Below, in pieces: positions 11,190 through 61,863 of a DNA stretch of 64,000 nucleotides. Every line of letters begins with the position of its first letter. The first letter of the stretch is position 1. The notes under the pieces are model-generated. The model ran no database searches. It saw nothing but the letters and a program-made list of their open reading frames with translations, and was not told the DNA's origin. Origin of the DNA: Escherichia phage MIZ4; the sequence record OR167180; one strand, 5' to 3'. The position numbers and the translations under genes are program-made.

Positions 11190-11729
11190 TCAAAGATCGC
11201 GATATTGTACATTATGAAAATGAGAACTTGCATTACCAATATTGTAGATAACAAATTCTTCATCCGGCGCTTGCGCTACAAATTGAGTATGAGCAACCGC
11301 TACGACTTTAAAAATACGATCCGTGATCTTGTGCTTAATTTCTGCCCCTACTTCCATAGGAACATATTCATTTGTTTCTGTTTCAGTCGCAAAACAGCCA
11401 TCTTCTTCATAAGCACGAACAAATCGGTCGCAATCAGTACGCTTAACAAATTCAAGAGTATATAATTCTCGTGAATTGTCGGTATAGACCAATACAGAAT
11501 TATTATGATAGCGAATCACATACAGGTTATTATCATCGTCAATTACGCAAAAGCTACGGATTCCTTCGCCTTGACTCCAGCAGACATTAACCACCGTTCC
11601 TCTAATAAAAAAACTTTCCTTTAAATTAAAACTAGTCAATGTGCTAGCGTGCATTTTAACAACAACACCATCACCAATTTCCAGTTTACGAAGTTTAACT
11701 TCTTTGCTCAGTACACAAAACATCATCAT
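11190..11729 (-). CDS. Hypothetical protein (179 aa)
   Basis: ORF track; start MMMFCVLSK directly after promoter cassette at 11758-11786. Confidence 0.55.
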   Translation of the reverse strand: MMMFCVLSKEVKLRKLEIGDGVVVKMHASTLTSFNLKESFFIRGTVVNVCWSQGEGIRSFCVIDDDNNLYVIRYHNNSVLVYTDNSRELYTLEFVKRTDCDRFVRAYEEDGCFATETETNEYVPMEVGAEIKHKITDRIFKVVAVAHTQFVAQAPDEEFVIYNIGNASSHFHNVQYRDL

Positions 11730-11789
11730 GTTGTCCTCTCGTTGTTTTCGATGTGAGCATTATACATTAGCTAATCATATTGTCAACAC

Positions 11790-11821
11790 CCCAAAACGAA
11801 AAGCCGACCCTTTCGGATCGG
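11790..11821 (-). terminator. Intrinsic terminator downstream of nrdD
   Basis: Hairpin GCCGACCC-TTTCGG-ATCGGC at 11802-11821 followed on the minus strand by TTTTCGTTTTGG. Confidence 0.6.
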
Positions 11822-11828
11822 CTAAAAA

Positions 11829-13691
11829 TTACATGTGCTTAACGCGGTTTACCATCTCGGAGTGTTTCCCGTGGTTGAATGGACGCAGATCAACAGATCC
11901 AAGATATCCACTAACGCGACGGATAACATTCATCTTTTCCAGATTGTCATTGCCGCAATCAGGACAAACAAAACCAGACTCGGTCGCTCTCATTTCCTTA
12001 GTAGATCCGCATACATGACATACATCAGAAGGAGTATTAACACCGAAGTAGTGCAATTTATCCATTGCATAATCGACTACAGTTTCAAGACCTTTCAGGT
12101 TGTTTTTCATGTCTGGGAACTCAACATAAGAGATCATGCCACCGGACGCCAGCCAGTGATAATCTTTCTCAAAGTCGATTTTCTCAAATGGAGTGACTTT
12201 CCGGTCTACGTCAAGGTGGAATGAGTTTGTGTACCAGTCTTTATCGGTAGCACCCTTAACAATACCAAACTGCTCTCTGTCCAGTCGATTAAATCGATAG
12301 CAAAGGCTCTCGGCTGGCGTACCGTAAAGACTAAACCCAAGTCCGGTTTCGTCCTTCCATTTTTCAGTATAATGACGCAAGATCTTAAGAATATGTTTAC
12401 CGTATCGCTGCGCATCTTCCGAATCAAACGGATGAACACCAAACAGGACGCTCAATACCTCATGTAAACCAATATATCCAAGAGAGATACTAGCGCGACC
12501 ATCTTTCAACACTTCCAAAATTTCATCGTTTTGATGAATACGGAAAAATGCACCTTCTGTATACAGCACCGGAGCAACATTGGCTTTAGCCCCTTTTAAA
12601 GCGTCTACGCGACTCATGAGCGCATCAAAGCAAATATGCATACGATTAGCTAGCTCTTGTTCGAATAGCTCAATTCTGCGCATTACAGACGCTTTACCAG
12701 CACGACGAGCGGCAATAAGGGCAATACGCGGAAGATTCAGAGTCACAACACCTAAGTTATTACGTCCGTCTAATACTTCCTCGCCTTTCTCATTATGCCA
12801 CACACCCAGGAAGCTACGACAACCCATCGGGCTAACCGGAACACTAGATCCAGTGATGCTACGGTTATTCTTCGCAGAGATATAATCAGGGTAAAGACGC
12901 TTACTAGAACATTCCAATGCAAGTTGCTTAATGTCGTAGTTCGGATCTTCCGGTTTAAGGTTTAATCCTTCTTCTAAGAACATCACCAGCTTAGGAAACA
13001 CCGGAGTGATACCATCTTTACCTAAACCTTTAGTTCGAACGTTCAGGATCGCTTTCTGAATCAGTTTTTCTTCCCAGCTAGTACCCATACCAAAGGTTAA
13101 AGTCACAAAAGGCGTTTGACCGTTGGTGGAGAACAAAGTGTTGATTTCATATTCCAACGCTTGATACCCGTCTAGCGTTTCTTTTTCTGTCTTCTCTTGT
13201 GCATAGAGAGTATCAGCTTTGATTCCGTAGGTCTCGGCATCAGCAAGGTGTTTATGATATGTTTTCTCAACGTATGGCGCTAAAACCTGATCGATGTTTG
13301 CAATTGTGGTCCCGCCATATTGATGACTTGCCACCTGTGCGATAATTTGAGCGGTTACAGCACAAGCAACGCCGATTGATTTCGGACTTTCGATTTGTGC
13401 GCTACCCAATTTAAAACCATTCTCTAACATGTCTTTGAGATTAACAAGACAGCAGTTAGTAAACGGCATAGCGGGTGCATAATCCATATCATGATAATGA
13501 ATGTCACCGTCTACATGCGCTTTATAGATGTGCTCAGGTAACACGGTTTTAGCAATCTGTTTAGACACAGCACCAGCAATCAGATCTCGACGTGTCGGGA
13601 ATGTTCGCGCGTCTTTGTTCGCGTTCTCTTTGCTTACTTCGTTTTCTTTACCCGTTGCGATCTCTGTAATGTCTTTGATTAGTTTTTCCAT
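11829..13691 (-). CDS. nrdD: Anaerobic ribonucleoside-triphosphate reductase NrdD (glycyl radical enzyme), uninterrupted
   Basis: 620-aa ORF aligns along its length with recalled T4 NrdD; C-terminal zinc ribbon CHVCGS...CPDCG and glycyl radical motif RRVSGYLG; no intron (T4 nrdD carries a group I intron). Confidence 0.95.
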   Translation of the reverse strand: MEKLIKDITEIATGKENEVSKENANKDARTFPTRRDLIAGAVSKQIAKTVLPEHIYKAHVDGDIHYHDMDYAPAMPFTNCCLVNLKDMLENGFKLGSAQIESPKSIGVACAVTAQIIAQVASHQYGGTTIANIDQVLAPYVEKTYHKHLADAETYGIKADTLYAQEKTEKETLDGYQALEYEINTLFSTNGQTPFVTLTFGMGTSWEEKLIQKAILNVRTKGLGKDGITPVFPKLVMFLEEGLNLKPEDPNYDIKQLALECSSKRLYPDYISAKNNRSITGSSVPVSPMGCRSFLGVWHNEKGEEVLDGRNNLGVVTLNLPRIALIAARRAGKASVMRRIELFEQELANRMHICFDALMSRVDALKGAKANVAPVLYTEGAFFRIHQNDEILEVLKDGRASISLGYIGLHEVLSVLFGVHPFDSEDAQRYGKHILKILRHYTEKWKDETGLGFSLYGTPAESLCYRFNRLDREQFGIVKGATDKDWYTNSFHLDVDRKVTPFEKIDFEKDYHWLASGGMISYVEFPDMKNNLKGLETVVDYAMDKLHYFGVNTPSDVCHVCGSTKEMRATESGFVCPDCGNDNLEKMNVIRRVSGYLGSVDLRPFNHGKHSEMVNRVKHM

Positions 13692-14260: not shown

Positions 14261-14288
14261 ATTATAGCATACTCCCTTCGCATGTCAA
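14261..14288 (-). promoter_or_regulatory. Sigma70-type early promoter (repeated cassette) for ORF 13736-14230
   Basis: Minus-strand TTGACA (14283-14288), 16-nt spacer, TATAAT (14261-14266); -10 lies inside palindrome GGGAGTAT..ATACTCCC. Confidence 0.5.
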
Positions 14289-16935: not shown

Positions 16936-17229
16936 TTAACCATTAATCTTGTTTTTGACTACAAAGGATCTGAACTCATCAAAACCACCTATATAATCAC
17001 CATTATAGAAAATCTGCGGCATGGTGGCAATAACTTCTACCCCTGCGCGATCCTGAATGTCGGCAATGATAGAATCAATCTTTACCGGACGACCGTTTTC
17101 GTCCACACCATCATTAACCGGAATGTAGATGTAAGGGATCTTACGCGATTCACAAAGGCGCTTTGCATTCTGGCAATACTTACAGTTGTAACCTTCAAAA
17201 CCAAAAATTTCTACCATGTTATACCTCAA
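16936..17229 (-). CDS. nrdC: Thioredoxin/glutaredoxin NrdC
   Basis: CKYCQNAKRL (T4 CVYCDNAKRL) and TMPQIF...IGGFDEFR match recalled T4 NrdC. Confidence 0.8.
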   Translation of the reverse strand: MRYNMVEIFGFEGYNCKYCQNAKRLCESRKIPYIYIPVNDGVDENGRPVKIDSIIADIQDRAGVEVIATMPQIFYNGDYIGGFDEFRSFVVKNKING

Positions 17230-18038
17230 TCTACGTTAGTTACATAAACTTCTTGCGTATCAGAAGACTTACCACCTGAACGATCTAGGCAATAGGTCTT
17301 ATTCAACAAGACGCAGTTTAAATCATTCCGCTTGATAAAGTCAAGAAGATGATCATTTACCTTTCCCTTATGATGTGTGACATTACTGATACCAAACTGA
17401 AAACCACGCGCCATAATAGATTCTACCCACTGATAGAATTTAATCTCTTCTTCTTCACTCCAGAACTTATTATATTCTGCCGATGTGATCCAATATGGCG
17501 GGTCCAAATAAACGAAATCACCTGGCAAGATCTCGATCTCGTCATAGCGACCAGACGTAAAACTGATTCGACCGTCTTTGTTTTCTTCCTTAAAATTCAG
17601 GACACGCTCTACCGCGTTTTCGTTAAAAGTCCGGCGACCAAAATTAGCATTAAATTCTCCCTTCCTGTTATGGCGGTTAATGTTGCTAAAACTGTGCTGA
17701 ATCAGAACAAACAGAGATAGCGGATCTGGATTCTCATTATACTTCTTACGGAATGCCATGTAAGCGTCTTTATCTTCGCGAGACAAACCATTTTCGGCAA
17801 TAATACGCTTGATCGTAGAAACCGGATCAGGACACTCGTCAATCGCTTTGTACGCGTCAATTAAGCGGTGATCATAGTCATTAGCCAGCACATCCCCTTC
17901 TACGTACAGAGACACGCTCAAGCCACCACAAAAGGCATCGACAAAGCGGTTATAGTGCTTAGGGAAATACTTACTAACACCAGGCAATAACTTTTCCTTA
18001 TTGCCCGTATAGGGAATTAAACCTAATGCTTTCTTCAT
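17226..18038 (-). CDS. dam: DNA N6-adenine methyltransferase Dam
   Basis: YTGNKEKLLP, FVDAFCGGLSVSL (AdoMet motif), GDFVYLDPPYWITSAEYNKFWSEEEE (DPPY) match recalled T4 Dam. Confidence 0.9.
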   Translation of the reverse strand: MKKALGLIPYTGNKEKLLPGVSKYFPKHYNRFVDAFCGGLSVSLYVEGDVLANDYDHRLIDAYKAIDECPDPVSTIKRIIAENGLSREDKDAYMAFRKKYNENPDPLSLFVLIQHSFSNINRHNRKGEFNANFGRRTFNENAVERVLNFKEENKDGRISFTSGRYDEIEILPGDFVYLDPPYWITSAEYNKFWSEEEEIKFYQWVESIMARGFQFGISNVTHHKGKVNDHLLDFIKRNDLNCVLLNKTYCLDRSGGKSSDTQEVYVTNVD

Positions 18039-19630: not shown

Positions 19631-19659
19631 ATTATATGATAACCGCATTTTCATGTCAA
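19631..19659 (-). promoter_or_regulatory. Sigma70-type early promoter cassette
   Basis: Minus-strand TTGACA (19654-19659), 17-nt spacer, TATAAT (19631-19636); flanked by inverted repeat ATGCGGT..ACCGCAT. Confidence 0.5.
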
Positions 19660-22604: not shown

Positions 22605-22632
22605 ATTATACGGGGATTTCTCCCCGTGTCAA
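22605..22632 (-). promoter_or_regulatory. Sigma70-type early promoter cassette with palindromic spacer
   Basis: Minus-strand TTGACA (22627-22632), spacer CGGGGAGAAATCCCCG (perfect palindrome), TATAAT (22605-22610). Confidence 0.55.
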
Positions 22633-50000: not shown

Positions 50001-50168
50001 TTCCACGGACTTAAAGCAAGCGAACGAAGATTTGCAATGAGTCCACTGTTTGACCAGTCGGCGGTAACATTCTCTATGTTCCGTGAACTTGTAGATAAAC
50101 GGTTGAAGGATAATATAGGAAATCCACGCGATCCGAAGAATCCGACACAGAGGAAAATTAATGGCTAA
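47082..50168 (+). CDS. 7: Baseplate wedge initiator gp7
   Basis: 1028-aa ORF (T4 gp7 1032 aa) between gp6 and gp8 with overlapping start/stop codons. Confidence 0.88.
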   Translation: MIKAPSVTSLTIEKLSANQAYITWDDVGENFFYFVELAETRTRDGEIIPVDELSWVNLGYTAEQNWFEDKNLFPEYYYKFRVAVAAEGFEQSKWVETEEFQTFKTNAYNFSMMREFNLANEFIKEKFTYDNREYVKFNTDLIQASLMKEDFVFSPEYANMTNISNYIVVDENFHEIQDHIEKVCTDINRTMLAEMNGVLYLFERFQPIVKVSNDKGQSWKAYKAFNDRVGNPVSRTCVYQSKTTTYVLGYDRIFYGRQASDTRWSADDVRFSDDTITFAKVGDENDLGFDVEVFGVFSRLTGDTTKYAEAMACSDDYLWVGAKDVIRRIRLKNTPVDTVQGSPTFGEKIFDPDVIRVTGNDKAVIQKMDVIDGKLLVFVTGEVKQRYQDPTKPENVVPSDDAGVYLIGSDGLSFQRVFGNTPQEREYIQHGFSNMSTNGDEVFISHYNHHFESILPDPETAAKYELSEAVKYSQEPTYLTDKKIHQTTFRASYDDLRIWELGPQAYYNEADYTWMRRNGVRVWITNDNRPLVVYPEVVYTQEVDTSGILDKNRINREVYDKGTVTCYLNNVKFEGFKQYASGVMFHKNTGEIIGFYQFNYRVRDQVGVYWKPTNVAFVAELQNQVREVPWVPVHYDREQDPDLRPLLNKMTPDSFLLENENFRKFSEYYLQFLSDGSGTYYNKLKNLIKNKYPREQDAYEYLWSEMNKRNIYADKNKRDAVVRFFESRKSDFYSTKGVEASYKFLFKLLYNEDVEIEVESQAGLEYDIVVSSTNIDEDIVGRTIYTPTGRANVTYLEREYEGGRLRWRVTIHNLIGRFEEGQVIKSEKTAFEGMILVGVRGKELLSSSIDYINRSRSQYTMKIKSALPVSRYANDVMRFVHPVGFGFIGVTLLTMFINSGLSMKHTETIIQSLKNYKFDSGLPSVYPDRVADLDVDGNIKKDPLTGKALYLTSPTMGEEFPVPPEYDQENSELFHGLKASERRFAMSPLFDQSAVTFSMFRELVDKRLKDNIGNPRDPKNPTQRKING

Positions 50169-51156
50169 TGAAAATAGTGTGATCTATCGCTCAATCATTA
50201 CTAGCAAATTCAGAACAGAAAAACTTCTGAACTTCTATAATTCTGTAGGCGATGGAGCAAATCAAATTACAATTTATGGAACGTTTGGACGTTCGGAGCC
50301 GTGGTCAGAAAACGAAAAAGAGGTGGGCTTTGCCCCACCTTATCCGACCGATTCAACGGCTGGTGTTGTTGACATGTGGACCCATATGATGGGGGCGGTT
50401 AAGATTAACAAATCACTTCTTGATGCGGTTATCCCTCGTAAAGATTGGGGTGATACCGGACAGGATAACCCGCGCACGTTCTTTATCAATGACATTGTTG
50501 TCGTAAACTCAGCACCATATAACCGAACTGATGTTGGTAGCGGCTGGATGGTGTATCGCGTAACCGATGTTCCTGATCGCGGTTACTGCTCGATTTCAAG
50601 CATTGACGCTAAAGTAGAGTGTTTGAAGTTGGGCGGAAAGTGGACCCCCACTCATGAATCAATTGCGCCACCTGTAGGAAAGGGCGATTCTATTGATATG
50701 GGTGATGGGTATCGTTGGGAATATCTGTACACAATTCCACCTGATGCGGCGATCAACCGTTGCACCAATGAACATATTGTTGTACCGTTCCCCGATGAAC
50801 TGCGACAAGATCCGGCGCGTTGGGGCTATGACAATGTGATCACCTGGTATAATGACTATAATCTGCTTTATCGGCTGAAAGTAGTAACTTTGCGTTTTCA
50901 GGCTTATATGGACTCTGCGCAATTCCCAACTACCGCGTTAGTGGGTAATACTGGTTTCCGTCAGTTAAGCATTATCCTTAACCCATTGGAAAAGAAAGCA
51001 CGCCCTAGCGATCCAGACGTTAAAGCGGTCAAAGATAAGTACCGACCGCAAGACTTAGAGCCACACTCAGGCGAAATGATCTACATGGAAAACCGACAAC
51101 CTATCGTTCGGTCATTAGATCAAACAGAACTTGTTTCTGTATTGTTTGAGTTCTAA
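50161..51156 (+). CDS. 8: Baseplate wedge protein gp8
   Basis: SVIYRSIITSKFRTEKLLNFYNSVG, FGRSEPWSENEKEVGFAPPYPTDS, CLKLGGKWTP, SGEMIYMENRQPI match recalled T4 gp8. Confidence 0.95.
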   Translation: MANENSVIYRSIITSKFRTEKLLNFYNSVGDGANQITIYGTFGRSEPWSENEKEVGFAPPYPTDSTAGVVDMWTHMMGAVKINKSLLDAVIPRKDWGDTGQDNPRTFFINDIVVVNSAPYNRTDVGSGWMVYRVTDVPDRGYCSISSIDAKVECLKLGGKWTPTHESIAPPVGKGDSIDMGDGYRWEYLYTIPPDAAINRCTNEHIVVPFPDELRQDPARWGYDNVITWYNDYNLLYRLKVVTLRFQAYMDSAQFPTTALVGNTGFRQLSIILNPLEKKARPSDPDVKAVKDKYRPQDLEPHSGEMIYMENRQPIVRSLDQTELVSVLFEF

Positions 51157-51170
51157 GTGTATGATTTTAA

Positions 51171-51206
51171 AAGCCAATTCGAGAGAGTTGGCTTTTCCAT
51201 TTTTGG
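51171..51206 (+). terminator. Intrinsic terminator after gp8
   Basis: AAGCCAA-TTCGAGAGAG-TTGGCTT hairpin followed by TTCCATTTTTGG. Confidence 0.55.
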
Positions 51207-51208
51207 TG

Positions 51209-51236
51209 TTGACAATCTTATTTGGTAAGGTATAAT
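51209..51236 (+). promoter_or_regulatory. Near-consensus sigma70 (early) promoter driving the methyltransferase cassette
   Basis: TTGACA (51209-51214), 16-nt spacer, TATAAT (51231-51236), ~30 nt upstream of ATG 51266. Confidence 0.65.
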
Positions 51237-51265
51237 ACACACATCTAAACAACGGAGGATAAATT

Positions 51266-51523
51266 ATGGCACGTCGTAAATTTACAGATAATTGTGAAGC
51301 AATTCAGGTATCCCCTTGCGGTTGGGATGTGATCGCGAACGGTGAAAAGATTGGAGAGATCATCGATCATACTCATTCATCACTAGCCGATTACACCGAT
51401 GAACTATGGGAGGGTATCAACTTCATGAATGACACTAAACGATTCAAGACTATCGACGAAGCTATCTATTTTGTGTATAATCCAACTTTCGGTATGTGGG
51501 GAACTAGAAAATGGCACGCGTAA
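51266..51523 (+). CDS. Hypothetical protein (85 aa), first gene of inserted cassette
   Basis: ORF track; SD GGAGGA; starts MARRKF as do the next two genes. Confidence 0.55.
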   Translation: MARRKFTDNCEAIQVSPCGWDVIANGEKIGEIIDHTHSSLADYTDELWEGINFMNDTKRFKTIDEAIYFVYNPTFGMWGTRKWHA

Positions 51524-51840
51524 ATATTAAACTGCATTATACAATGGGTAAACCAAAACATCCAATGCATAAAGTGTTTTGGGGCTTGCATCTTCAAGAA
51601 AAATGGCATGATAACTATTGGTTTTGTGACCATGATAAGAAGTGGCATTCTCAAGATGAAGTTAATGCGATGATGGAACAGGGTATCAAATTTAATTACT
51701 CTAATTATGACCATAGCATTACTTGTATTCGAAAATTGAAACGGTTTATTCGAAAGAATCCGCAATTTAAAAACTTTGTGTTCTTTATGTCTCATGTTTA
51801 TTTGGGGCATAGCGTTACCGTAACAGTAAAGGTTAAATAA
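51511..51840 (+). CDS. Hypothetical His/Trp-rich protein (109 aa), second gene of inserted cassette
   Basis: ORF track; overlapping start/stop with neighbours. Confidence 0.55.
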   Translation: MARVNIKLHYTMGKPKHPMHKVFWGLHLQEKWHDNYWFCDHDKKWHSQDEVNAMMEQGIKFNYSNYDHSITCIRKLKRFIRKNPQFKNFVFFMSHVYLGHSVTVTVKVK

Positions 51841-52679
51841 TGGCACGACTTTCTAAACAAGAGCAAAAATTACACGATCGGGCGATGGAGTTGATTAATT
51901 CAGATCGTCCATTGACATTTGAAGAAAAAGAATTTTGCTATAACAACTATCATGGCGATGGACTAGGTGGTTCCGGTGCATTCTTTACCCCAGAATGGCT
52001 TGCCTGGGATTTTACCATTGATGCATATTGCACCGGAAAAGTATTAGATCTTTGTGCGGGGATCGGTCGCTTATCTTTTTGTATGTTACATCGTTGTAAG
52101 CCAGAAAAGATCGTATGCGTCGAACTCAATCCAGAATTTGCGCGGATTGGCAAGCGACTATTACCGGAGGCAGAATGGATCACCAGCGATGTATTCGAAT
52201 TTGAGTCAAACGAAAAATTCGATGTGGTGATCAGCAATCCACCTTTCGGTAAAATCAATACTACAGACACAAAGGATGTATTTGAATATACTGGCGGTGA
52301 GTTTGAATTTAAGGTTATGACGTTAGGCCAGAAGTTTGCCGATGTAGGTTATTTTATTGTTCCTGCTAGTTCCGCTGGGTTTGCTTATTCCGGCAGACCT
52401 TATTATGATGAATCAGTGAAGTCTAATAAATATCTAAAATGGAGCAAACAAACTGGTTTGGTGACTTACGCCGGATGTGGGATCGATACATCAATCTATC
52501 GCGATGAATGGCATAGTACCAACGTTTTAACAGAAGTGGTTGAGGTTCGGTATTACGAGAAAGAAGCCGTAGAAGCGCCTAAATCACGTCCCAACGAACA
52601 AATAGAAGAAAGTAAGGAGATTACCTTACCGAAACAGGAAAGCGAGTCTGGGACGCTCTCAGATTTGTTTGACATTTAA
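51840..52679 (+). CDS. Gamma-class amino-methyltransferase (probable DNA N6-adenine MTase), orphan
   Basis: Motif X GAFFTPEWL, motif I VLDLCAGIGRLS, motif IV VISNPPFG in X-I-IV order; no adjacent specificity or restriction subunit. Confidence 0.7.
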   Translation: MARLSKQEQKLHDRAMELINSDRPLTFEEKEFCYNNYHGDGLGGSGAFFTPEWLAWDFTIDAYCTGKVLDLCAGIGRLSFCMLHRCKPEKIVCVELNPEFARIGKRLLPEAEWITSDVFEFESNEKFDVVISNPPFGKINTTDTKDVFEYTGGEFEFKVMTLGQKFADVGYFIVPASSAGFAYSGRPYYDESVKSNKYLKWSKQTGLVTYAGCGIDTSIYRDEWHSTNVLTEVVEVRYYEKEAVEAPKSRPNEQIEESKEITLPKQESESGTLSDLFDI

Positions 52680-52683
52680 TTAT

Positions 52684-52709
52684 AAGCCGTCCTTGTGGGC
52701 GGCTTTTTT
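52684..52709 (+). terminator. Intrinsic terminator closing the methyltransferase cassette
   Basis: AAGCCG-TCCTTGTGGG-CGGCTT hairpin followed by TTTTTT. Confidence 0.65.
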
Positions 52710-52719
52710 GTATGTATTT

Positions 52720-52727
52720 TATAAATA
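52720..52727 (+). promoter_or_regulatory. T4-type late promoter box TATAAATA upstream of gp9
   Basis: Exact TATAAATA ~28 nt upstream of gp9 ATG at 52755. Confidence 0.6.
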
Positions 52728-52754: not shown

Positions 52755-53609
52755 ATGGCACAAGTTCCAAAGAAAAGAATAGACACAGGTACTGTCGGCA
52801 ATCCATCGACTGGCGATATCTTATATGATGGCGGTAATAAAATTAACGATAACTTTGATTCAATATATGACGCATTTGCTGATCAACGGTTTAAAGACGT
52901 AGACCACGGCGTAGGAAGAATGGTTATTCATGCAACCGGATACTATCAGAAACATCCACGTCAAAGCTACGCTGGGTCCGCTGTTGAGATTGGGAGTCTA
53001 CACGATATCGATACAACTCAAGGCGCACTTATTGCTATTCTACCTAAAGCAAAGGTTGGTGAGGGTGTTGTATTCATAAATAGTAACGGTAGCTTTTCAA
53101 CGACGACACCGCTCAATATTAGAACTCAAGCAGGTGATTCTATTAGCGGGTATTCCGGTGATGCTATAATAACACAACCATTTTCAAAAGTCACTGTTTG
53201 GTGTACTGCCGTTGAAGGTAGTCGCGTAACATGGCGATTGGGTATCGAAAGTATGTTTACCGATACAACAACGCCATTAGATAAAACAGTTAACGTAACT
53301 GGAGTAGCAACAAACGTTGCTATTTCCGCAAAAACAGAATACGTTTCCATCAAATTATTAACTACCGCTAGCAATACATCCGGTTCAAAAATGCGTTCAA
53401 GTGAAACGCTACTGATGATTGATTCTAAAGCCGGAAAAGTTTATGCGACGGAATATGCAGTTTTGCAGAAGACAGAAGATGAGCTATACACGGTTCGTTA
53501 TTTCATCGGTTCCGGCGATAAAGTATATGCAGAGTATAAGGCTACTGGCGAAAATATTCGTTTAGCAGTTAAAGCCGTAGACACTATTAAAATCGGGGTT
53601 GCTACATGA
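52755..53609 (+). CDS. 9: Baseplate wedge tail-fibre connector gp9
   Basis: KKRIDTGTVGNPSTGDILYDGGNKINDNFDSIYDAF, IHATGYYQKH, NSNGSFSTTTPLNI match recalled T4 gp9. Confidence 0.93.
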   Translation: MAQVPKKRIDTGTVGNPSTGDILYDGGNKINDNFDSIYDAFADQRFKDVDHGVGRMVIHATGYYQKHPRQSYAGSAVEIGSLHDIDTTQGALIAILPKAKVGEGVVFINSNGSFSTTTPLNIRTQAGDSISGYSGDAIITQPFSKVTVWCTAVEGSRVTWRLGIESMFTDTTTPLDKTVNVTGVATNVAISAKTEYVSIKLLTTASNTSGSKMRSSETLLMIDSKAGKVYATEYAVLQKTEDELYTVRYFIGSGDKVYAEYKATGENIRLAVKAVDTIKIGVAT

Positions 53610-61122: not shown

Positions 61123-61863
61123 ATGTTTAACAACACTCTTTTTGCTCGCCTTGAATCGCAGAAGGACTACGAGAATACACGACAAACAGAGATTCTTAAT
61201 CCTTATGTGAACTTTCACAAATATACAAATACTCAGACGTTAGCCGACGTTATGGTCGCCGAAGCTATTCAGATGCGAGGTGTAGAATTATATTACATCC
61301 CTCGTGAATTTGTCAAACCAGATATGATCTTTGGTGAGGATGTTCAAAGCAAATTTACTAAAGCATGGAAATTTGCGGCTTATATTAACTCATTTGATGG
61401 GTATGAAGGAGCGGGTAATTTCTTCTCTAGTTTCGGGTATCAAGCTAATGATGAACTAACTTTTACGGTTAACCCCAACCTATTCAAGCATCAAGTAGAT
61501 GATCAAGAGCCAAAATCAGGTGACTTAATTTATATTCCTATGAGCAATGATTTATTTGAAATCTCATATGTAGAGCCATATCAGCCGTTTTTTCAGGCTG
61601 GCAAAAATGCCATGCGTAAAATTATTGCAGAGAAATTCGTGTATAGCGGTGAGGAATTGCGACCAGAATTACAACGCAATGAGGGAATTAATGTTGATGA
61701 GTTTGCGGATCTGGATCTTGCACCGATCACTAATCTGGACGGGTTAACAGATATCAACTTAGATCAGTACAAAGAAGATAAGCAATTCAGAAGCGAAGGA
61801 CAAGATTTTATTGATCCGTTTGATCCTATTAATGGCAAGGGTTCACCTTTCGCCGATTTTTGA
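61123..61863 (+). CDS. 14: Neck protein gp14
   Basis: [81 protein letters not shown] match recalled T4 gp14. Confidence 0.95.

What the first reader, a model, noticed from the sequence alone, without database searches (positions are those of the whole stretch)
51157..52727. Self-contained early-promoter cassette with an orphan gamma-class amino-methyltransferase inserted between baseplate genes 8 and 9
In T4, genes 8 and 9 are adjacent. Here a 1.5-kb unit is inserted: terminator hairpin (51171-51206), near-consensus sigma70 promoter TTGACA-16-TATAAT (51209-51236), three co-oriented genes all starting MAR (85, 109 and 279 aa), a strong terminator (52684-52709), then the late promoter TATAAATA for gp9. 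The 279-aa protein has motifs X (GAFFTP), I (DLCAGIGRLS) and IV (NPPFG) in gamma-class order, like HsdM/M.TaqI-type N6-adenine MTases, yet has no room for a typical target-recognition domain and no HsdS/HsdR partner. The two small upstream proteins have no recognisable motifs and could be specificity, regulatory or unrelated anti-defence partners. An early-expressed module embedded in a late structural operon, giving the phage a second amino-MTase besides Dam, is a strong candidate for an undescribed anti-restriction or epigenetic system.
Basis: partly seen in the sequence, partly recalled or inferred. Interest (0 to 1): 0.78.

Follow-up and report, generated by a model that had tools for sequence, protein, structure and literature searches.

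The report
Clamp-tethered phage DNA methyltransferase cassette
A small early-expressed gene block inserted among the tail genes of an RB49-like E. coli phage encodes a probable DNA adenine methyltransferase that ends in the same short peptide the phage's own DNA polymerase uses to grip the sliding clamp, which suggests that methylation is physically coupled to DNA replication.

Summary
The window is a Krischvirus (RB49-like; 100% identical to phage MIZ5). Between baseplate genes 8 and 9 lie a hairpin, a perfect sigma-70 promoter, three translationally coupled ORFs (85, 109 and 279 aa), a terminator and the gene 9 late promoter. Most of this is already known in kind. The hairpin-plus-promoter is a published PeSL element. 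The block is present in all 58 Krischvirus records, and its regulatory signals are already annotated in one of them. The two small ORFs are separable ORFans, not methyltransferase partners.

The new finding is in the methyltransferase. It has a one-domain adenine-N6 fold, a disordered linker, and the C-terminal peptide TLSDLFDI. The phage's own DNA polymerase ends in SLTDLFDI, which aligns with the RB69 polymerase C-terminus (the clamp-binding peptide, from memory). Across the wider family, unrelated linkers end in clamp motifs that match the carrier. Pseudomonas megaplasmids and many viral contigs carry the bacterial beta-clamp motif QLSLF. Prophage-edge copies have no tail.

Best reading: an early, clamp-tethered orphan DNA adenine methyltransferase. 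Binding, substrate and target sequence are untested. I found no prior description in the literature I could search.

The parts
50161..51156 (+). Gene 8, baseplate wedge subunit (left border of the insertion).
   Evidence: Pfam Phage-Gp8 1.1e-143 and phrog_977.
51169..51206 (+). Stem-loop (51169-51196) plus T-rich tract. This is the stem-loop part of a PeSL and the likely terminator or attenuator for gene 6-8 read-through.
   Evidence: 12-bp stem, dG -17.3, z -4.6, 0 of 200 shuffles fold as well. 68% identical over 112 nt to the PeSL at 11727-11838(-), with a compensatory change in the stem; the best random segment reached 43%.
51209..51236 (+). Sigma-70 promoter TTGACA-N16-TATAAT (the early-promoter part of the PeSL).
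   Evidence: 12/12 consensus. There are 6 perfect matches in the window against 0.11 expected. It is annotated as a promoter in the GEC-3S record. Activity of other PeSL promoters was shown in PMC2839356.
51266..51523 (+). ORF1, an 85-aa ORFan (phrog_16603), preceded by an SD sequence (GGAGGA).
   Evidence: Found only in Krischvirus and 3 rV5-like phages. Split by an 11-bp deletion in the RB49 reference. No Pfam, NCBIfam, PADLOC or PDB match.
51511..51840 (+). ORF2, a 109-aa ORFan (phrog_12630). It overlaps ORF1 by 13 nt.
   Evidence: Only 5 clusters in 5.8 billion proteins. Two alleles in Krischvirus (>95% and about 72%), and found in Vequintavirus. In FV3 the pair lies among rV5-specific genes with no MTase. 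The AF2 model is unreliable (pLDDT 52).
51840..52556 (+). Methyltransferase catalytic core (aa 1-239). It has an N-terminal helical extension and a Rossmann fold with motif X GAFFTP, motif I DLCAGIGRLS and motif IV NPPFG.
52557..52652 (+). Disordered acidic linker (aa 240-271).
   Evidence: pLDDT 48-65. The sequence varies even within Krischvirus, and linkers are unrelated across the family.
52653..52676 (+). C-terminal peptide TLSDLFDI (aa 272-279), a predicted gp45 sliding-clamp-binding motif. Its last codons contain TTGACA (52669-52674).
   Evidence: RB49 and MIZ5 gp43 end in SLTDLFDI. The gp43 tail aligns with the RB69 polymerase tail ASLFDMFD(F). The peptide is invariant in Krischvirus and kept in homologues at 62-67% identity.
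52684..52710 (+). Intrinsic terminator (9-bp GC-rich stem plus T6) that closes the early unit.
   Evidence: dG -15.9, z -4.6. Annotated as a terminator in GEC-3S.
52720..52727 (+). T4-type late promoter TATAAATA for gene 9.
   Evidence: Read directly from the sequence. The same hairpin + TATAAATA arrangement is found in the sister lineage L101.
52755..53609 (+). Gene 9, baseplate wedge tail-fibre connector (right border).
   Evidence: Pfam T4_gp9_10_N 3.8e-41.

Best explanation
The 1.5-kb block is a PeSL-type early expression cassette inserted between late genes 8 and 9 of a Krischvirus.

How the cassette is expressed:
- The upstream stem-loop stops transcription coming from genes 6-8.
- The adjacent consensus sigma-70 promoter is read by unmodified host RNA polymerase right after infection.
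- It drives one translationally coupled mRNA for two dispensable ORFans and a 279-aa methyltransferase.
- A strong terminator insulates gene 9, which has its own late promoter.

What the payload does (proposed):
- The methyltransferase is a minimal, single-domain adenine-N6 enzyme that most likely acts on DNA.
- A flexible 32-aa linker ends in TLSDLFDI, the same extreme C-terminal peptide as the phage's own DNA polymerase gp43.
- I propose that this peptide docks into the hydrophobic pocket of the trimeric gp45 sliding clamp. The enzyme would then ride on clamps at forks, or on clamps left on nascent DNA, and methylate phage DNA as it is made.
- This would protect progeny genomes, whose cytosines are unmodified in at least some krischviruses, from host restriction, or mark them as self.

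Shown: the anatomy, conservation, fold class, identity of the tail with gp43's tail, and family-wide matching of tail type to clamp type.
Inferred: early timing, clamp binding, DNA as substrate, and the anti-restriction role. The target sequence is unknown.
For: Cassette:
- Hairpin, 12/12 promoter, terminator and late promoter are all present.
- Five of the six perfect sigma-70 promoters in the window have an associated stem-loop plus an SD and start codon. The element is 68% identical to the one at 11759(-).
- It matches the published PeSL definition. That paper states that such elements prevent spill-over of early ORFan expression into late virion genes.
- The same architecture occurs in sister lineages with 0 or 1 different upstream ORF.

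Enzyme:
- Invariant GAFFTP, GxG and NPPFG motifs.
- Confident AF2 model.
- The best profile hits are DNA MTase families in PADLOC and PHROGs.
- The family lives on phages, prophage edges and plasmids, not in core genomes.
- DNA-centred neighbourhoods: between helicase gp41 and primase gp61 in KP15, directly after a DnaB-like helicase in L068, and between an MT-A70 and a C5 DNA methylase in L087.

Tail:
- MTase ...GTLSDLFDI* versus gp43 ...ASLTDLFDI* in both RB49 and MIZ5.
- A loose C-terminal pattern matched 4 of 732 stop-to-stop segments in 113 kb of MIZ5; only gp43 and the MTase share the DLFDI ending.
- The codons for [ST]L[ST]DL differ (8 of 15 nt match), so this is not a fresh DNA copy.
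- The gp43 tail aligns with the RB69 polymerase C-terminus. The RB49 gp55 tail aligns with T4 gp55's SLDFLYEA. The LDFL-type C-terminal clamp motif is documented in PMC9690074.

Family-level short-motif behaviour:
- 33 of 37 distinct viral-contig tails end in the motif, against 1.9 expected from shuffling.
- Among representatives at 50% identity or less, 52 of 88 tails have it, against 11.2 expected.
- In long tails the motif is in the last 16 residues in 15 of 29 cases and in the first 16 residues in 0 of 29.
- Pseudomonas megaplasmid copies have an ~85-aa Pro/Ala linker ending in FAQLSLFDAA*. This is the canonical beta-clamp motif, on replicons that use the host clamp.
- Prophage-edge copies have no tail.
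Against: - There is no physical evidence of clamp binding, and I could not run a complex prediction.
- The last 12 nt of the MTase gene and of gene 43 are identical (TTTGACATTTAA) and contain TTGACA. RB49's annotators marked that hexamer as a -35 box. Part of the identity could therefore be a promoter or recombination footprint.
- In KP15-type phages the MTase tail (SDLFTFTIE) shares only the DLF core with the polymerase tail (SLNDLFGDW).
- Aeromonas T4-like phages, jumbo phages and prophage copies lack any tail, so the enzyme does not need it.
- The Pfam N6_Mtase match is below its gathering score (15.8 against 20.4).
- HPLC/MS of Krischvirus TB34 DNA reported no detectable modified nucleosides (PMC13390438). 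This argues against dense adenine methylation. The study did not mention m6A at all although the genus encodes Dam, so sparse m6A may simply have been missed.
- Early timing rests on promoter type only.
Confidence: 0.55

Rival explanations
1. It is a free-diffusing orphan DNA methyltransferase used for anti-restriction, and the C-terminal similarity to gp43 has no function. On this view the similarity is a footprint of PeSL or -35-box recombination at the 3' end of the gene.
For: The last 12 nt are identical to the 3' end of gene 43 and contain TTGACA, which is annotated as a -35 box in RB49. PeSLs are proposed recombination substrates. Tail-less family members exist.
Against: The five residues upstream of the shared 12 nt are conserved with divergent codons. 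The motif is invariant while the linker drifts. Homologues at 62-67% identity keep an equivalent motif. In unrelated carriers the tails end in the beta-clamp motif, far above shuffled expectation and only at the extreme C-terminus.
Confidence: 0.2
2. It is an RNA or protein methyltransferase (rRNA/tRNA m6A or m2G, or glutamine-N5 like PrmC) that reprograms the host translation apparatus early in infection.
Against: The NCBIfam scores are far below cut-off (36.9 against 199 for PrmC). The PADLOC and PHROG DNA-MTase hits are stronger. Clamp-binding tails and replication-gene or DNA-methylase neighbourhoods make no sense for an RNA or protein enzyme.
Confidence: 0.12
3. The tail binds the clamp mainly for regulation. 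It would compete with gp43 or with gp33/gp55 for gp45 pockets to time replication or late transcription, and methylation would be secondary.
For: The tail is a near copy of the polymerase's own clamp peptide. The clamp is also the late-transcription activator. Phage Mu's MuC shows that phage proteins exploit clamp motifs for transcription.
Against: The catalytic motifs are invariant across hundreds of diverged homologues. The same enzyme core carries beta-clamp tails on plasmids, which have no late-transcription programme. The cassette is a dispensable-type insertion.
Confidence: 0.08
4. It is a three-protein system in which ORF1 and/or ORF2 give the domain-poor methyltransferase its sequence specificity or regulate it.
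For: The three genes are co-transcribed and translationally coupled. The MTase has no separate target-recognition domain.
Against: The ORF1-ORF2 pair occurs without any MTase in FV3. The MTase sits at the same junction alone (L101) or with an unrelated 154-aa ORF (L104). ORF1 is disrupted in RB49. ORF2 has been swapped for a 72%-identical allele while the MTase stays above 95% identical. Hundreds of homologues lack both ORFs.
Confidence: 0.05

Closest known systems
PeSL (promoter-early stem-loop) + ORFan cassettes of RB49/phi1 (Arbiol et al. 2010, PMC2839356; Comeau et al. 2014, PMC4122927)
   Same: A near-perfect sigma-70 promoter next to a stable stem-loop, with an SD and start codon downstream. 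It is repeated in the genome, flanks non-essential genes, and insulates late genes. The stem-loop lies upstream of the -35 box, which is one of the five described subclasses.
   Different: It sits inside the conserved baseplate module rather than in a hyperplastic region. The spacer is 16 nt rather than 17. The papers do not discuss this junction or the methyltransferase (0 occurrences of 'methyltransferase' in both).
C-terminal gp45-clamp-binding peptides of T4/RB69 gp43, gp33 and gp55
   Same: An extreme C-terminal, short hydrophobic/acidic peptide after a flexible segment. Six of eight residues are identical to the cognate gp43 tail. The gp43 tail is homologous to the RB69 polymerase C-terminus, which was crystallised in the gp45 pocket (Shamoo & Steitz 1999, from memory).
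   Different: It is attached to a methyltransferase, which is not a known clamp client in phages or bacteria. Binding is untested.
DNMT1-PCNA (a PIP-box-tethered maintenance DNA methyltransferase in eukaryotes)
   Same: The concept is the same: a DNA methyltransferase recruited to newly replicated DNA through a short clamp-binding motif.
   Different: The catalytic family is unrelated (C5-cytosine versus adenine-N6). This is a viral or plasmid orphan enzyme. The motif is C-terminal and is swapped to suit a gp45-type or beta-type clamp.
Gamma-class N6-adenine DNA methyltransferases (M.TaqI, type I HsdM, Eco57I-like)
   Different: There is no target-recognition domain and no HsdS partner. The protein is only about 240 aa. 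The Pfam N6_Mtase match is below threshold.
METTL5 / PH1948 small rRNA m6A methyltransferases
   Different: There is no TRMT112-type partner. The carrier is a mobile element, the contexts are replication genes, and many members have clamp-binding tails.
T4-type Dam orphan methyltransferase
   Same: A phage-encoded orphan adenine MTase thought to protect DNA from restriction. The window also encodes one, at 17226-18038(-).
   Different: It belongs to a different class (alpha/D12, DPPY) with a known GATC target and no clamp motif.

Membership tests
PeSL regulatory cassette (Arbiol 2010) | Near-consensus sigma-70 promoter (TTGACA-N17-TATAAT). | tested here: met
   12/12 hexamer match with a 16-nt spacer at 51209-51236.
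PeSL regulatory cassette (Arbiol 2010) | A stable stem-loop adjacent to or overlapping the promoter. | tested here: met
   A 12-bp stem starting 40 nt upstream of the -35 box, dG -17.3, z -4.6. This is the 'upstream of -35' subclass described.
PeSL regulatory cassette (Arbiol 2010) | A repeated motif family within the genome. | tested here: met
   6 perfect promoters against 0.11 expected, 5 of them with stem-loops. 68% identity to the element at 11727-11838(-), against a maximum of 43% for random segments.
PeSL regulatory cassette (Arbiol 2010) | Flanks variable, non-essential ORF(an)s. | tested here: met
   The slot holds 2, 1 or 0 unrelated ORFs in three lineages. ORF1 is broken in RB49 and ORF2 has been allele-swapped.
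PeSL regulatory cassette (Arbiol 2010) | Promoter and terminator activity in vivo. | not testable with these tools
   Shown in the paper only for other PeSLs.
Gamma-class N6-adenine DNA methyltransferase | Motif order X - I - IV with (D/N)PP(Y/F/W). | tested here: met
   GAFFTP (aa 46-51), DLCAGIG (aa 70-76) and NPPFG (aa 133-137) are invariant in 35 homologues.
Gamma-class N6-adenine DNA methyltransferase | Class I SAM-dependent Rossmann fold that resembles solved N6-A MTases. | tested here: met
Gamma-class N6-adenine DNA methyltransferase | A C-terminal target-recognition domain or an HsdS specificity partner. | tested here: not met
   The model is a single domain ending near residue 240, followed by a disordered tail. 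No S or R gene is adjacent.
Gamma-class N6-adenine DNA methyltransferase | Curated profile score (Pfam N6_Mtase / Eco57I). | tested here: inconclusive
   N6_Mtase scores 15.8, below its 20.4 cut-off. Eco57I scores 26.5, just above its 25.3 cut-off. MTS scores 37.8, above its 23 cut-off.
Gamma-class N6-adenine DNA methyltransferase | Methylates adenine in DNA. | not testable with these tools
   No methylome data were found. TB34 HPLC/MS reported no modified nucleosides.
gp45 sliding-clamp clients (T4-type C-terminal motif) | A short hydrophobic/acidic motif at the extreme C-terminus that resembles the cognate polymerase tail. | tested here: met
   TLSDLFDI* against gp43 SLTDLFDI*. The gp43 tail aligns to the RB69 polymerase tail.
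gp45 sliding-clamp clients (T4-type C-terminal motif) | The motif is preceded by a flexible linker and conserved independently of it. | tested here: met
   pLDDT is about 50 for aa 250-279. The linker varies while the motif stays invariant.
gp45 sliding-clamp clients (T4-type C-terminal motif) | Physical binding to gp45. | not testable with these tools
Bacterial beta-clamp clients (QL[SD]LF / QLxLxL) - applies to relatives, not to the window protein | A consensus clamp-binding motif at a terminus. | tested here: met
   Megaplasmid copies end in FAQLSLFDAA*. About 40 viral-contig copies end in Q(L/A/P)(S/D)LF(G/D)xAA*.
PrmC/HemK release-factor glutamine methyltransferase (the name used in some GenBank records) | NCBIfam equivalog score. 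| tested here: not met
   TIGR03534 scores 36.9 bits against a cut-off of 199.1, and covers only the SAM-binding core, aa 66-137.
MADS Mad2 / defence-system methyltransferase | Full-length match and defence-gene neighbours. | tested here: not met
   The PADLOC mad2 hit covers only aa 30-139 of a 492-position profile. The neighbours are baseplate genes and ORFans.

The most novel reading that the evidence does not exclude
This is one member of a large, unrecognised family (about 1,000 representatives at 50% clustering) of replisome-tethered orphan DNA adenine methyltransferases on phages and plasmids. Their C-terminal short linear motif is exchanged to match the clamp of whichever replisome copies the element. 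Members carry gp45-type motifs in T4-like phages, where the Krischvirus motif copies the polymerase's own tail, and QL[SD]LF on elements that use the host beta clamp. That would make it a viral and prokaryotic counterpart of DNMT1-PCNA replication-coupled methylation.
Probability: 0.5. Interest if true: 0.78.

Novelty: new variant of a known kind. Interest (0 to 1): 0.64.

Why it matters
Krischviruses lack the hydroxymethyl-cytosine synthesis genes of the T-even phages, and at least one (TB34) has canonical cytosines (PMC13390438). How they escape restriction is therefore an open question.

A methyltransferase that rides the sliding clamp would explain how a phage that copies its genome many times within minutes could get every new duplex methylated before packaging. 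It would also add a new class of client to the gp45 and beta-clamp 'tool-belt'.

The family-wide pattern gives a simple and testable rule: the tail type predicts the clamp used. It also flags an overlooked methyltransferase in therapeutic-candidate phages. Published KP15/KP27 analyses listed only Dam and Dcm (PMC5219037).

Practically, the 8-residue tail could be a portable tag for recruiting enzymes to phage replication forks.

Tried and rejected
1. Small ORFs as partners or known proteins. Pfam, NCBIfam, PADLOC and PDB sequence searches found nothing. PHROGs lists both as unknown function. ORF2's AF2 model had pLDDT 52, so no fold search was run. Partnership was rejected on distribution.

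3. Type I or type II R-M membership. The genes adjacent to the cassette are not S or R genes, and the Pfam N6_Mtase score is below threshold.

4. A defence-system MTase (MADS Mad2). Only a partial core match.

5. Covariation of MTase and polymerase tails in the sister lineages P0003 and P0004. Their contigs do not include gene 43, and no complete genome of that type is in the phage collection.

6. In KP15 the MTase and polymerase tails share only DLF, so 'identical to own polymerase' holds for Krischvirus only.

7. Complex modelling of the tail with gp45 was not possible. gp45 lies outside the window and fusion sequences are not accepted.

8. Literature searches for a clamp-binding bacterial or phage DNA methyltransferase found none. 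They cover open-access papers and bioRxiv only.

9. A link to the unexplained cytosine modification of Krischvirus SAP. This is not supported: an NPPF amino-MTase is the wrong chemistry, and the unmodified sibling TB34 is 99.96% identical to SAP, so it almost certainly carries the gene as well.
Full report
IDENTITY AND OBSERVATION

The window is 100% identical to Escherichia phage MIZ5, a Krischvirus (RB49-like, 'pseudo-T-even'). The 2.1 kb around the finding is present at 94-100% identity in 58 phage records, all of this genus.

- gp8 (50161-51156) and gp9 (52755-53609).
- A 12-bp hairpin at 51169-51196 (dG -17.3 kcal/mol, z -4.6).
- A 12/12 sigma-70 promoter at 51209-51236.
- Three co-oriented ORFs of 85, 109 and 279 aa. 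ORF1 and ORF2 overlap by 13 nt, and the ORF2 stop shares a base with the MTase start.
- A GC-rich terminator at 52684-52705 (dG -15.9, z -4.6).
- TATAAATA at 52720-52727.

Genes 8 and 9 are directly adjacent (10-63 bp apart) in a Tequatrovirus, a Pseudotevenvirus and an Aeromonas T4-like phage. The block is therefore a lineage-specific insertion. A Dam-type methyltransferase is encoded elsewhere in the window, at 17226-18038(-).

THE REGULATORY SHELL IS A KNOWN KIND

Perfect TTGACA-N15-18-TATAAT sites occur 6 times in the window against 0.11 expected. Five of the six have a strong stem-loop placed upstream of, between, or overlapping the hexamers, followed by an SD and a start codon. This is the published definition of PeSLs (promoter-early stem-loops) in RB49/phi1. 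That definition includes the 'stem-loop upstream of -35' subclass, and the paper remarks that these elements stop early ORFan transcription from spilling into late virion genes (PMC2839356).

The gp8-side element is 68% identical over 112 ungapped nt to the PeSL at 11727-11838(-), with a compensatory change in the stem. The best random segment reached 43%. The GEC-3S GenBank record already annotates the terminator, promoter and terminator here.

THE TWO SMALL ORFS ARE SEPARABLE ORFANS

- ORF1 (phrog_16603) and ORF2 (phrog_12630) match nothing in Pfam, NCBIfam, PADLOC or the PDB.
- ORF2 has only five clusters among 5.8 billion proteins, and its AF2 model is unreliable (pLDDT 52).
- Both occur as an adjacent pair in rV5-like Vequintavirus phages such as FV3, among rV5-specific genes and with no methyltransferase.
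- Within Krischvirus, ORF2 exists as two alleles (>95% and about 72% identity), while the flanking genes stay above 95% identical in the phages checked (MIZ2, FL38).
- ORF1 is split by an 11-bp deletion in the RB49 reference.
- In metagenomic sister lineages the same gp8/gp9 gap holds the methyltransferase alone. There it is preceded by its own hairpin and TTGACA-N16-TATAAT and followed by a hairpin and TATAAATA (L101). Another lineage has an unrelated 154-aa ORF upstream of the MTase (L104).

So the promoter-proximal slot is variable and the methyltransferase is the constant payload. I reject the idea that the small proteins are specificity subunits.

THE METHYLTRANSFERASE CORE

- The 279-aa protein belongs to phrog_3820 ('DNA methyltransferase', 5.6e-116). 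It matches Pfam MTS (2e-9) and Eco57I (8e-6), and PADLOC type II MTases and Mad2 (core only).
- GAFFTP, the GxG loop and NPPFG are invariant in 35 homologues.
- The AF2 model (pLDDT 85, pTM 0.80) is one Rossmann domain with an N-terminal helical extension, ending near residue 240.
- The PrmC naming used in some records fails NCBIfam's cut-off by a wide margin (36.9 against 199).
- The family is large: 990 representatives at 50% clustering with E <= 1e-3. It lives on mobile DNA:
  - many T4-like genera, jumbo phages and Sinorhizobium phages;
  - the outermost gene of enterobacterial prophages and islands;
  - 115 Pseudomonas plasmid records among 187 plasmid hits; those listed are 300-580 kb megaplasmids.
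- Its neighbourhoods are DNA-centred. It lies between helicase gp41 and primase gp61 in KP15, directly after a DnaB-like helicase in L068, and between an MT-A70 and a C5 DNA methylase in L087.

THE NEW OBSERVATION: A CLAMP-BINDING TAIL

After the core comes a 32-aa acidic, disordered linker and then the extreme C-terminal peptide TLSDLFDI (52653-52676).

Match to the phage's own polymerase:
- RB49 gp43 and the C-terminal half of MIZ5's split gp43 both end in ...YEKVASLTDLFDI*.
- This tail aligns column for column with the RB69 polymerase C-terminus YEKKASLFDMFDF. That is the peptide crystallised in the gp45 clamp pocket (Shamoo & Steitz 1999, my recollection).
- RB49 gp55's SLDQFYEI aligns with T4 gp55's SLDFLYEA. 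The LDFL-type C-terminal clamp motif of gp33 and gp55 is documented in PMC9690074.
- In 113 kb of MIZ5, a loose C-terminal pattern matches only four of 732 stop-to-stop segments, and only gp43 and the methyltransferase share the DLFDI ending.
- At the DNA level only the last 12 nt are identical. The codons for [ST]-L-[ST]-D-L match at 8 of 15 positions.
- Within Krischvirus the linker drifts (KQESESG, EQETASG, EDKSPSG) while TLSDLFDI is invariant. Homologues at 62-67% identity, with unrelated linkers, keep TLTDLFDI or SLSMFDI.

Family-wide behaviour matches a short linear motif tied to the carrier's clamp:
- RB43/KP15-type T4-like phages end in (N/D)LFTFTIE. KP15's polymerase ends in SLNDLFGDW. 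These are the only two of 47 ORFs in that 29-kb region with DLF in the last 10 residues.
- About 40 loci on 16-90 kb viral contigs end in Q(L/A/P)(S/D/N)LF(G/D)xAA*.
- The Pseudomonas megaplasmid copies have an ~85-aa Pro/Ala-rich linker ending in FAQLSLFDAA*. This is the canonical bacterial beta-clamp motif QL[SD]LF (Dalrymple et al. 2001, my recollection).
- Prophage-edge copies stop right after the core.

Statistics:
- 33 of 37 distinct viral-contig tails carry the terminal motif, against 1.9 in shuffles.
- Among representatives no more than 50% identical to each other, 52 of 88 tails carry it, against 11.2 in shuffles (0 of 2000 shuffles reach the observed value).
- In tails of 32 aa or more, the motif is in the last 16 residues in 15 of 29 cases and in the first 16 in 0 of 29.
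- These sequences are related, so the shuffle counts are not probabilities. The non-homologous linkers and the positional control make common descent alone an unlikely explanation.

MECHANISM PROPOSED

1. Host RNA polymerase reads the PeSL promoter immediately after infection (inferred from the promoter type and from the published activity of other PeSLs).
2. The terminator keeps the unit separate from gene 9.
3. The methyltransferase accumulates before replication starts.
4. Its tail docks on gp45 clamps at forks, or on clamps left on nascent DNA (inferred).
5. The enzyme methylates adenines on new phage DNA (inferred).
6. This protects progeny genomes from restriction. The genus lacks the hmC synthesis genes (PMC13390438).

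The trimeric clamp can hold several clients at once, so sharing the polymerase's motif need not block replication.

CAVEATS

- The shared terminal 12 nt contain TTGACA. RB49's annotators read this as the -35 box of a promoter overlapping the end of gene 43, so a recombination or promoter footprint may explain part of the identity.
- Downstream of the MTase, TTGACA, the hairpin and TATAAATA resemble a PeSL, but the 45-nt spacing rules out a sigma-70 promoter.
- Some T4-like and jumbo phages carry tail-less copies.
- HPLC/MS found no modified nucleosides in Krischvirus TB34. That argues against dense, non-specific adenine methylation. The study did not mention m6A at all, although these phages also encode Dam, so sparse sites may have gone unseen.
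- No binding, activity or methylome data exist.

LITERATURE

Searches for clamp-binding bacterial or phage methyltransferases returned only DNMT1-PCNA and unrelated clamp clients such as MuC, Hda and transposases. The PeSL papers do not mention the methyltransferase. The KP15/KP27 papers list only Dam and Dcm and state that no other methyltransferases were found, although KP15_25 is a family member. Within the searchable literature the tail is undescribed.

VERDICT

The cassette itself is an ordinary member of a known kind: a PeSL + ORFans + an annotated orphan methyltransferase, conserved across the genus. The methyltransferase is a new variant. It probably acts on DNA adenine, and it carries a clamp-binding tail that in this phage copies the polymerase's own. 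Overall interest is moderate to high (0.64). Confidence in the full mechanistic chain is about 0.55.

Noticed in passing
L013 41462-45254 (MIZ5 record 93461-97253, just upstream of the window): Gene 43 (DNA polymerase) of MIZ5 is split into two CDS of 468 and about 402 aa by an intervening HNH endonuclease gene. RB49's gp43 is a single 892-aa protein. This looks like a split polymerase created by a homing endonuclease.
   Followed up: no
window 51511-51840; L098 1501-1833; L097 2501-2830: ORF2 exists as two alleles in Krischvirus: 19 records above 95% identity and about 39 near 72%. The flanking ORF1 and MTase stay above 95% in the phages checked. A third version (about 69%) is in rV5-like Vequintavirus phages. 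This points to a localised gene-sized exchange between unrelated phage families.
   Followed up: partly
L002 1867-2113 (RB49 record 73902-74148): In the RB49 reference ORF1 is split into two small CDS (RB49p140 and RB49p141) by an 11-bp deletion relative to MIZ5, phi1 and JSE. The gene is either dispensable or this is an old sequencing error.
   Followed up: partly
window 22605-22632 (-), 19631-19659 (-), 14261-14288 (-), 11759-11786 (-): Four more perfect sigma-70 promoters with stem-loops (PeSLs) lie in the early region. One is the textbook type with the stem between the hexamers: TTGACA-CGGGGAGAAATCCCCG-TATAAT. A sixth perfect promoter, at 61287-61316(-), has no stem-loop or start codon and lies antisense within the late-gene region.
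   Followed up: partly
L011 15793-15803 (-) (RB49 gene 43 3' end); window 52669-52674: The codons for the polymerase's clamp-binding tail (…TTT GAC ATT TAA) contain TTGACA, annotated in RB49 as the -35 box of an early promoter for the next gene. A protein-interaction motif and a promoter element therefore share the same bases. The same 12 nt end the methyltransferase gene.
   Followed up: partly
L017-L038 (viral contigs); L007-L010 (Salmonella); L003-L006 (Citrobacter): The tail-less 236-247-aa enterobacterial copies are nearly always the outermost gene of a predicted prophage, within 0-50 bp of the contig or prophage end. They lie next to core genes such as mipA or yliH. In Salmonella the prophage is T7-like. 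This is a moron-like position at the attachment-site boundary.
   Followed up: no
Literature: PMC13390438 (Krischvirus SAP versus TB34): Two Krischvirus phages that are 99.96% identical differ completely in cytosine modification: SAP has glucosyl-hmC-type bases and TB34 has none. The genus has no known hmC or glucosyltransferase genes. The authors leave this unexplained. The MTase studied here is the wrong chemistry to account for it.
   Followed up: no
L012 14001-14777 (KP15_25); literature PMC5219037, PMC3620542: The published KP15/KP27 analyses of an 'unknown DNA modification' considered only Dam and Dcm and stated that no other methyltransferase was present. A family member with a tail sits between gp41 and gp61 in these phages.
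   Followed up: partly
L067 and L079 (viral contigs): Two family members end in LDFGDWE(Q/A)(S/T)A*, which resembles the KP15 polymerase tail SLNDLFGDW*. This may be another clamp-motif dialect. The carriers were not identified.
   Followed up: no
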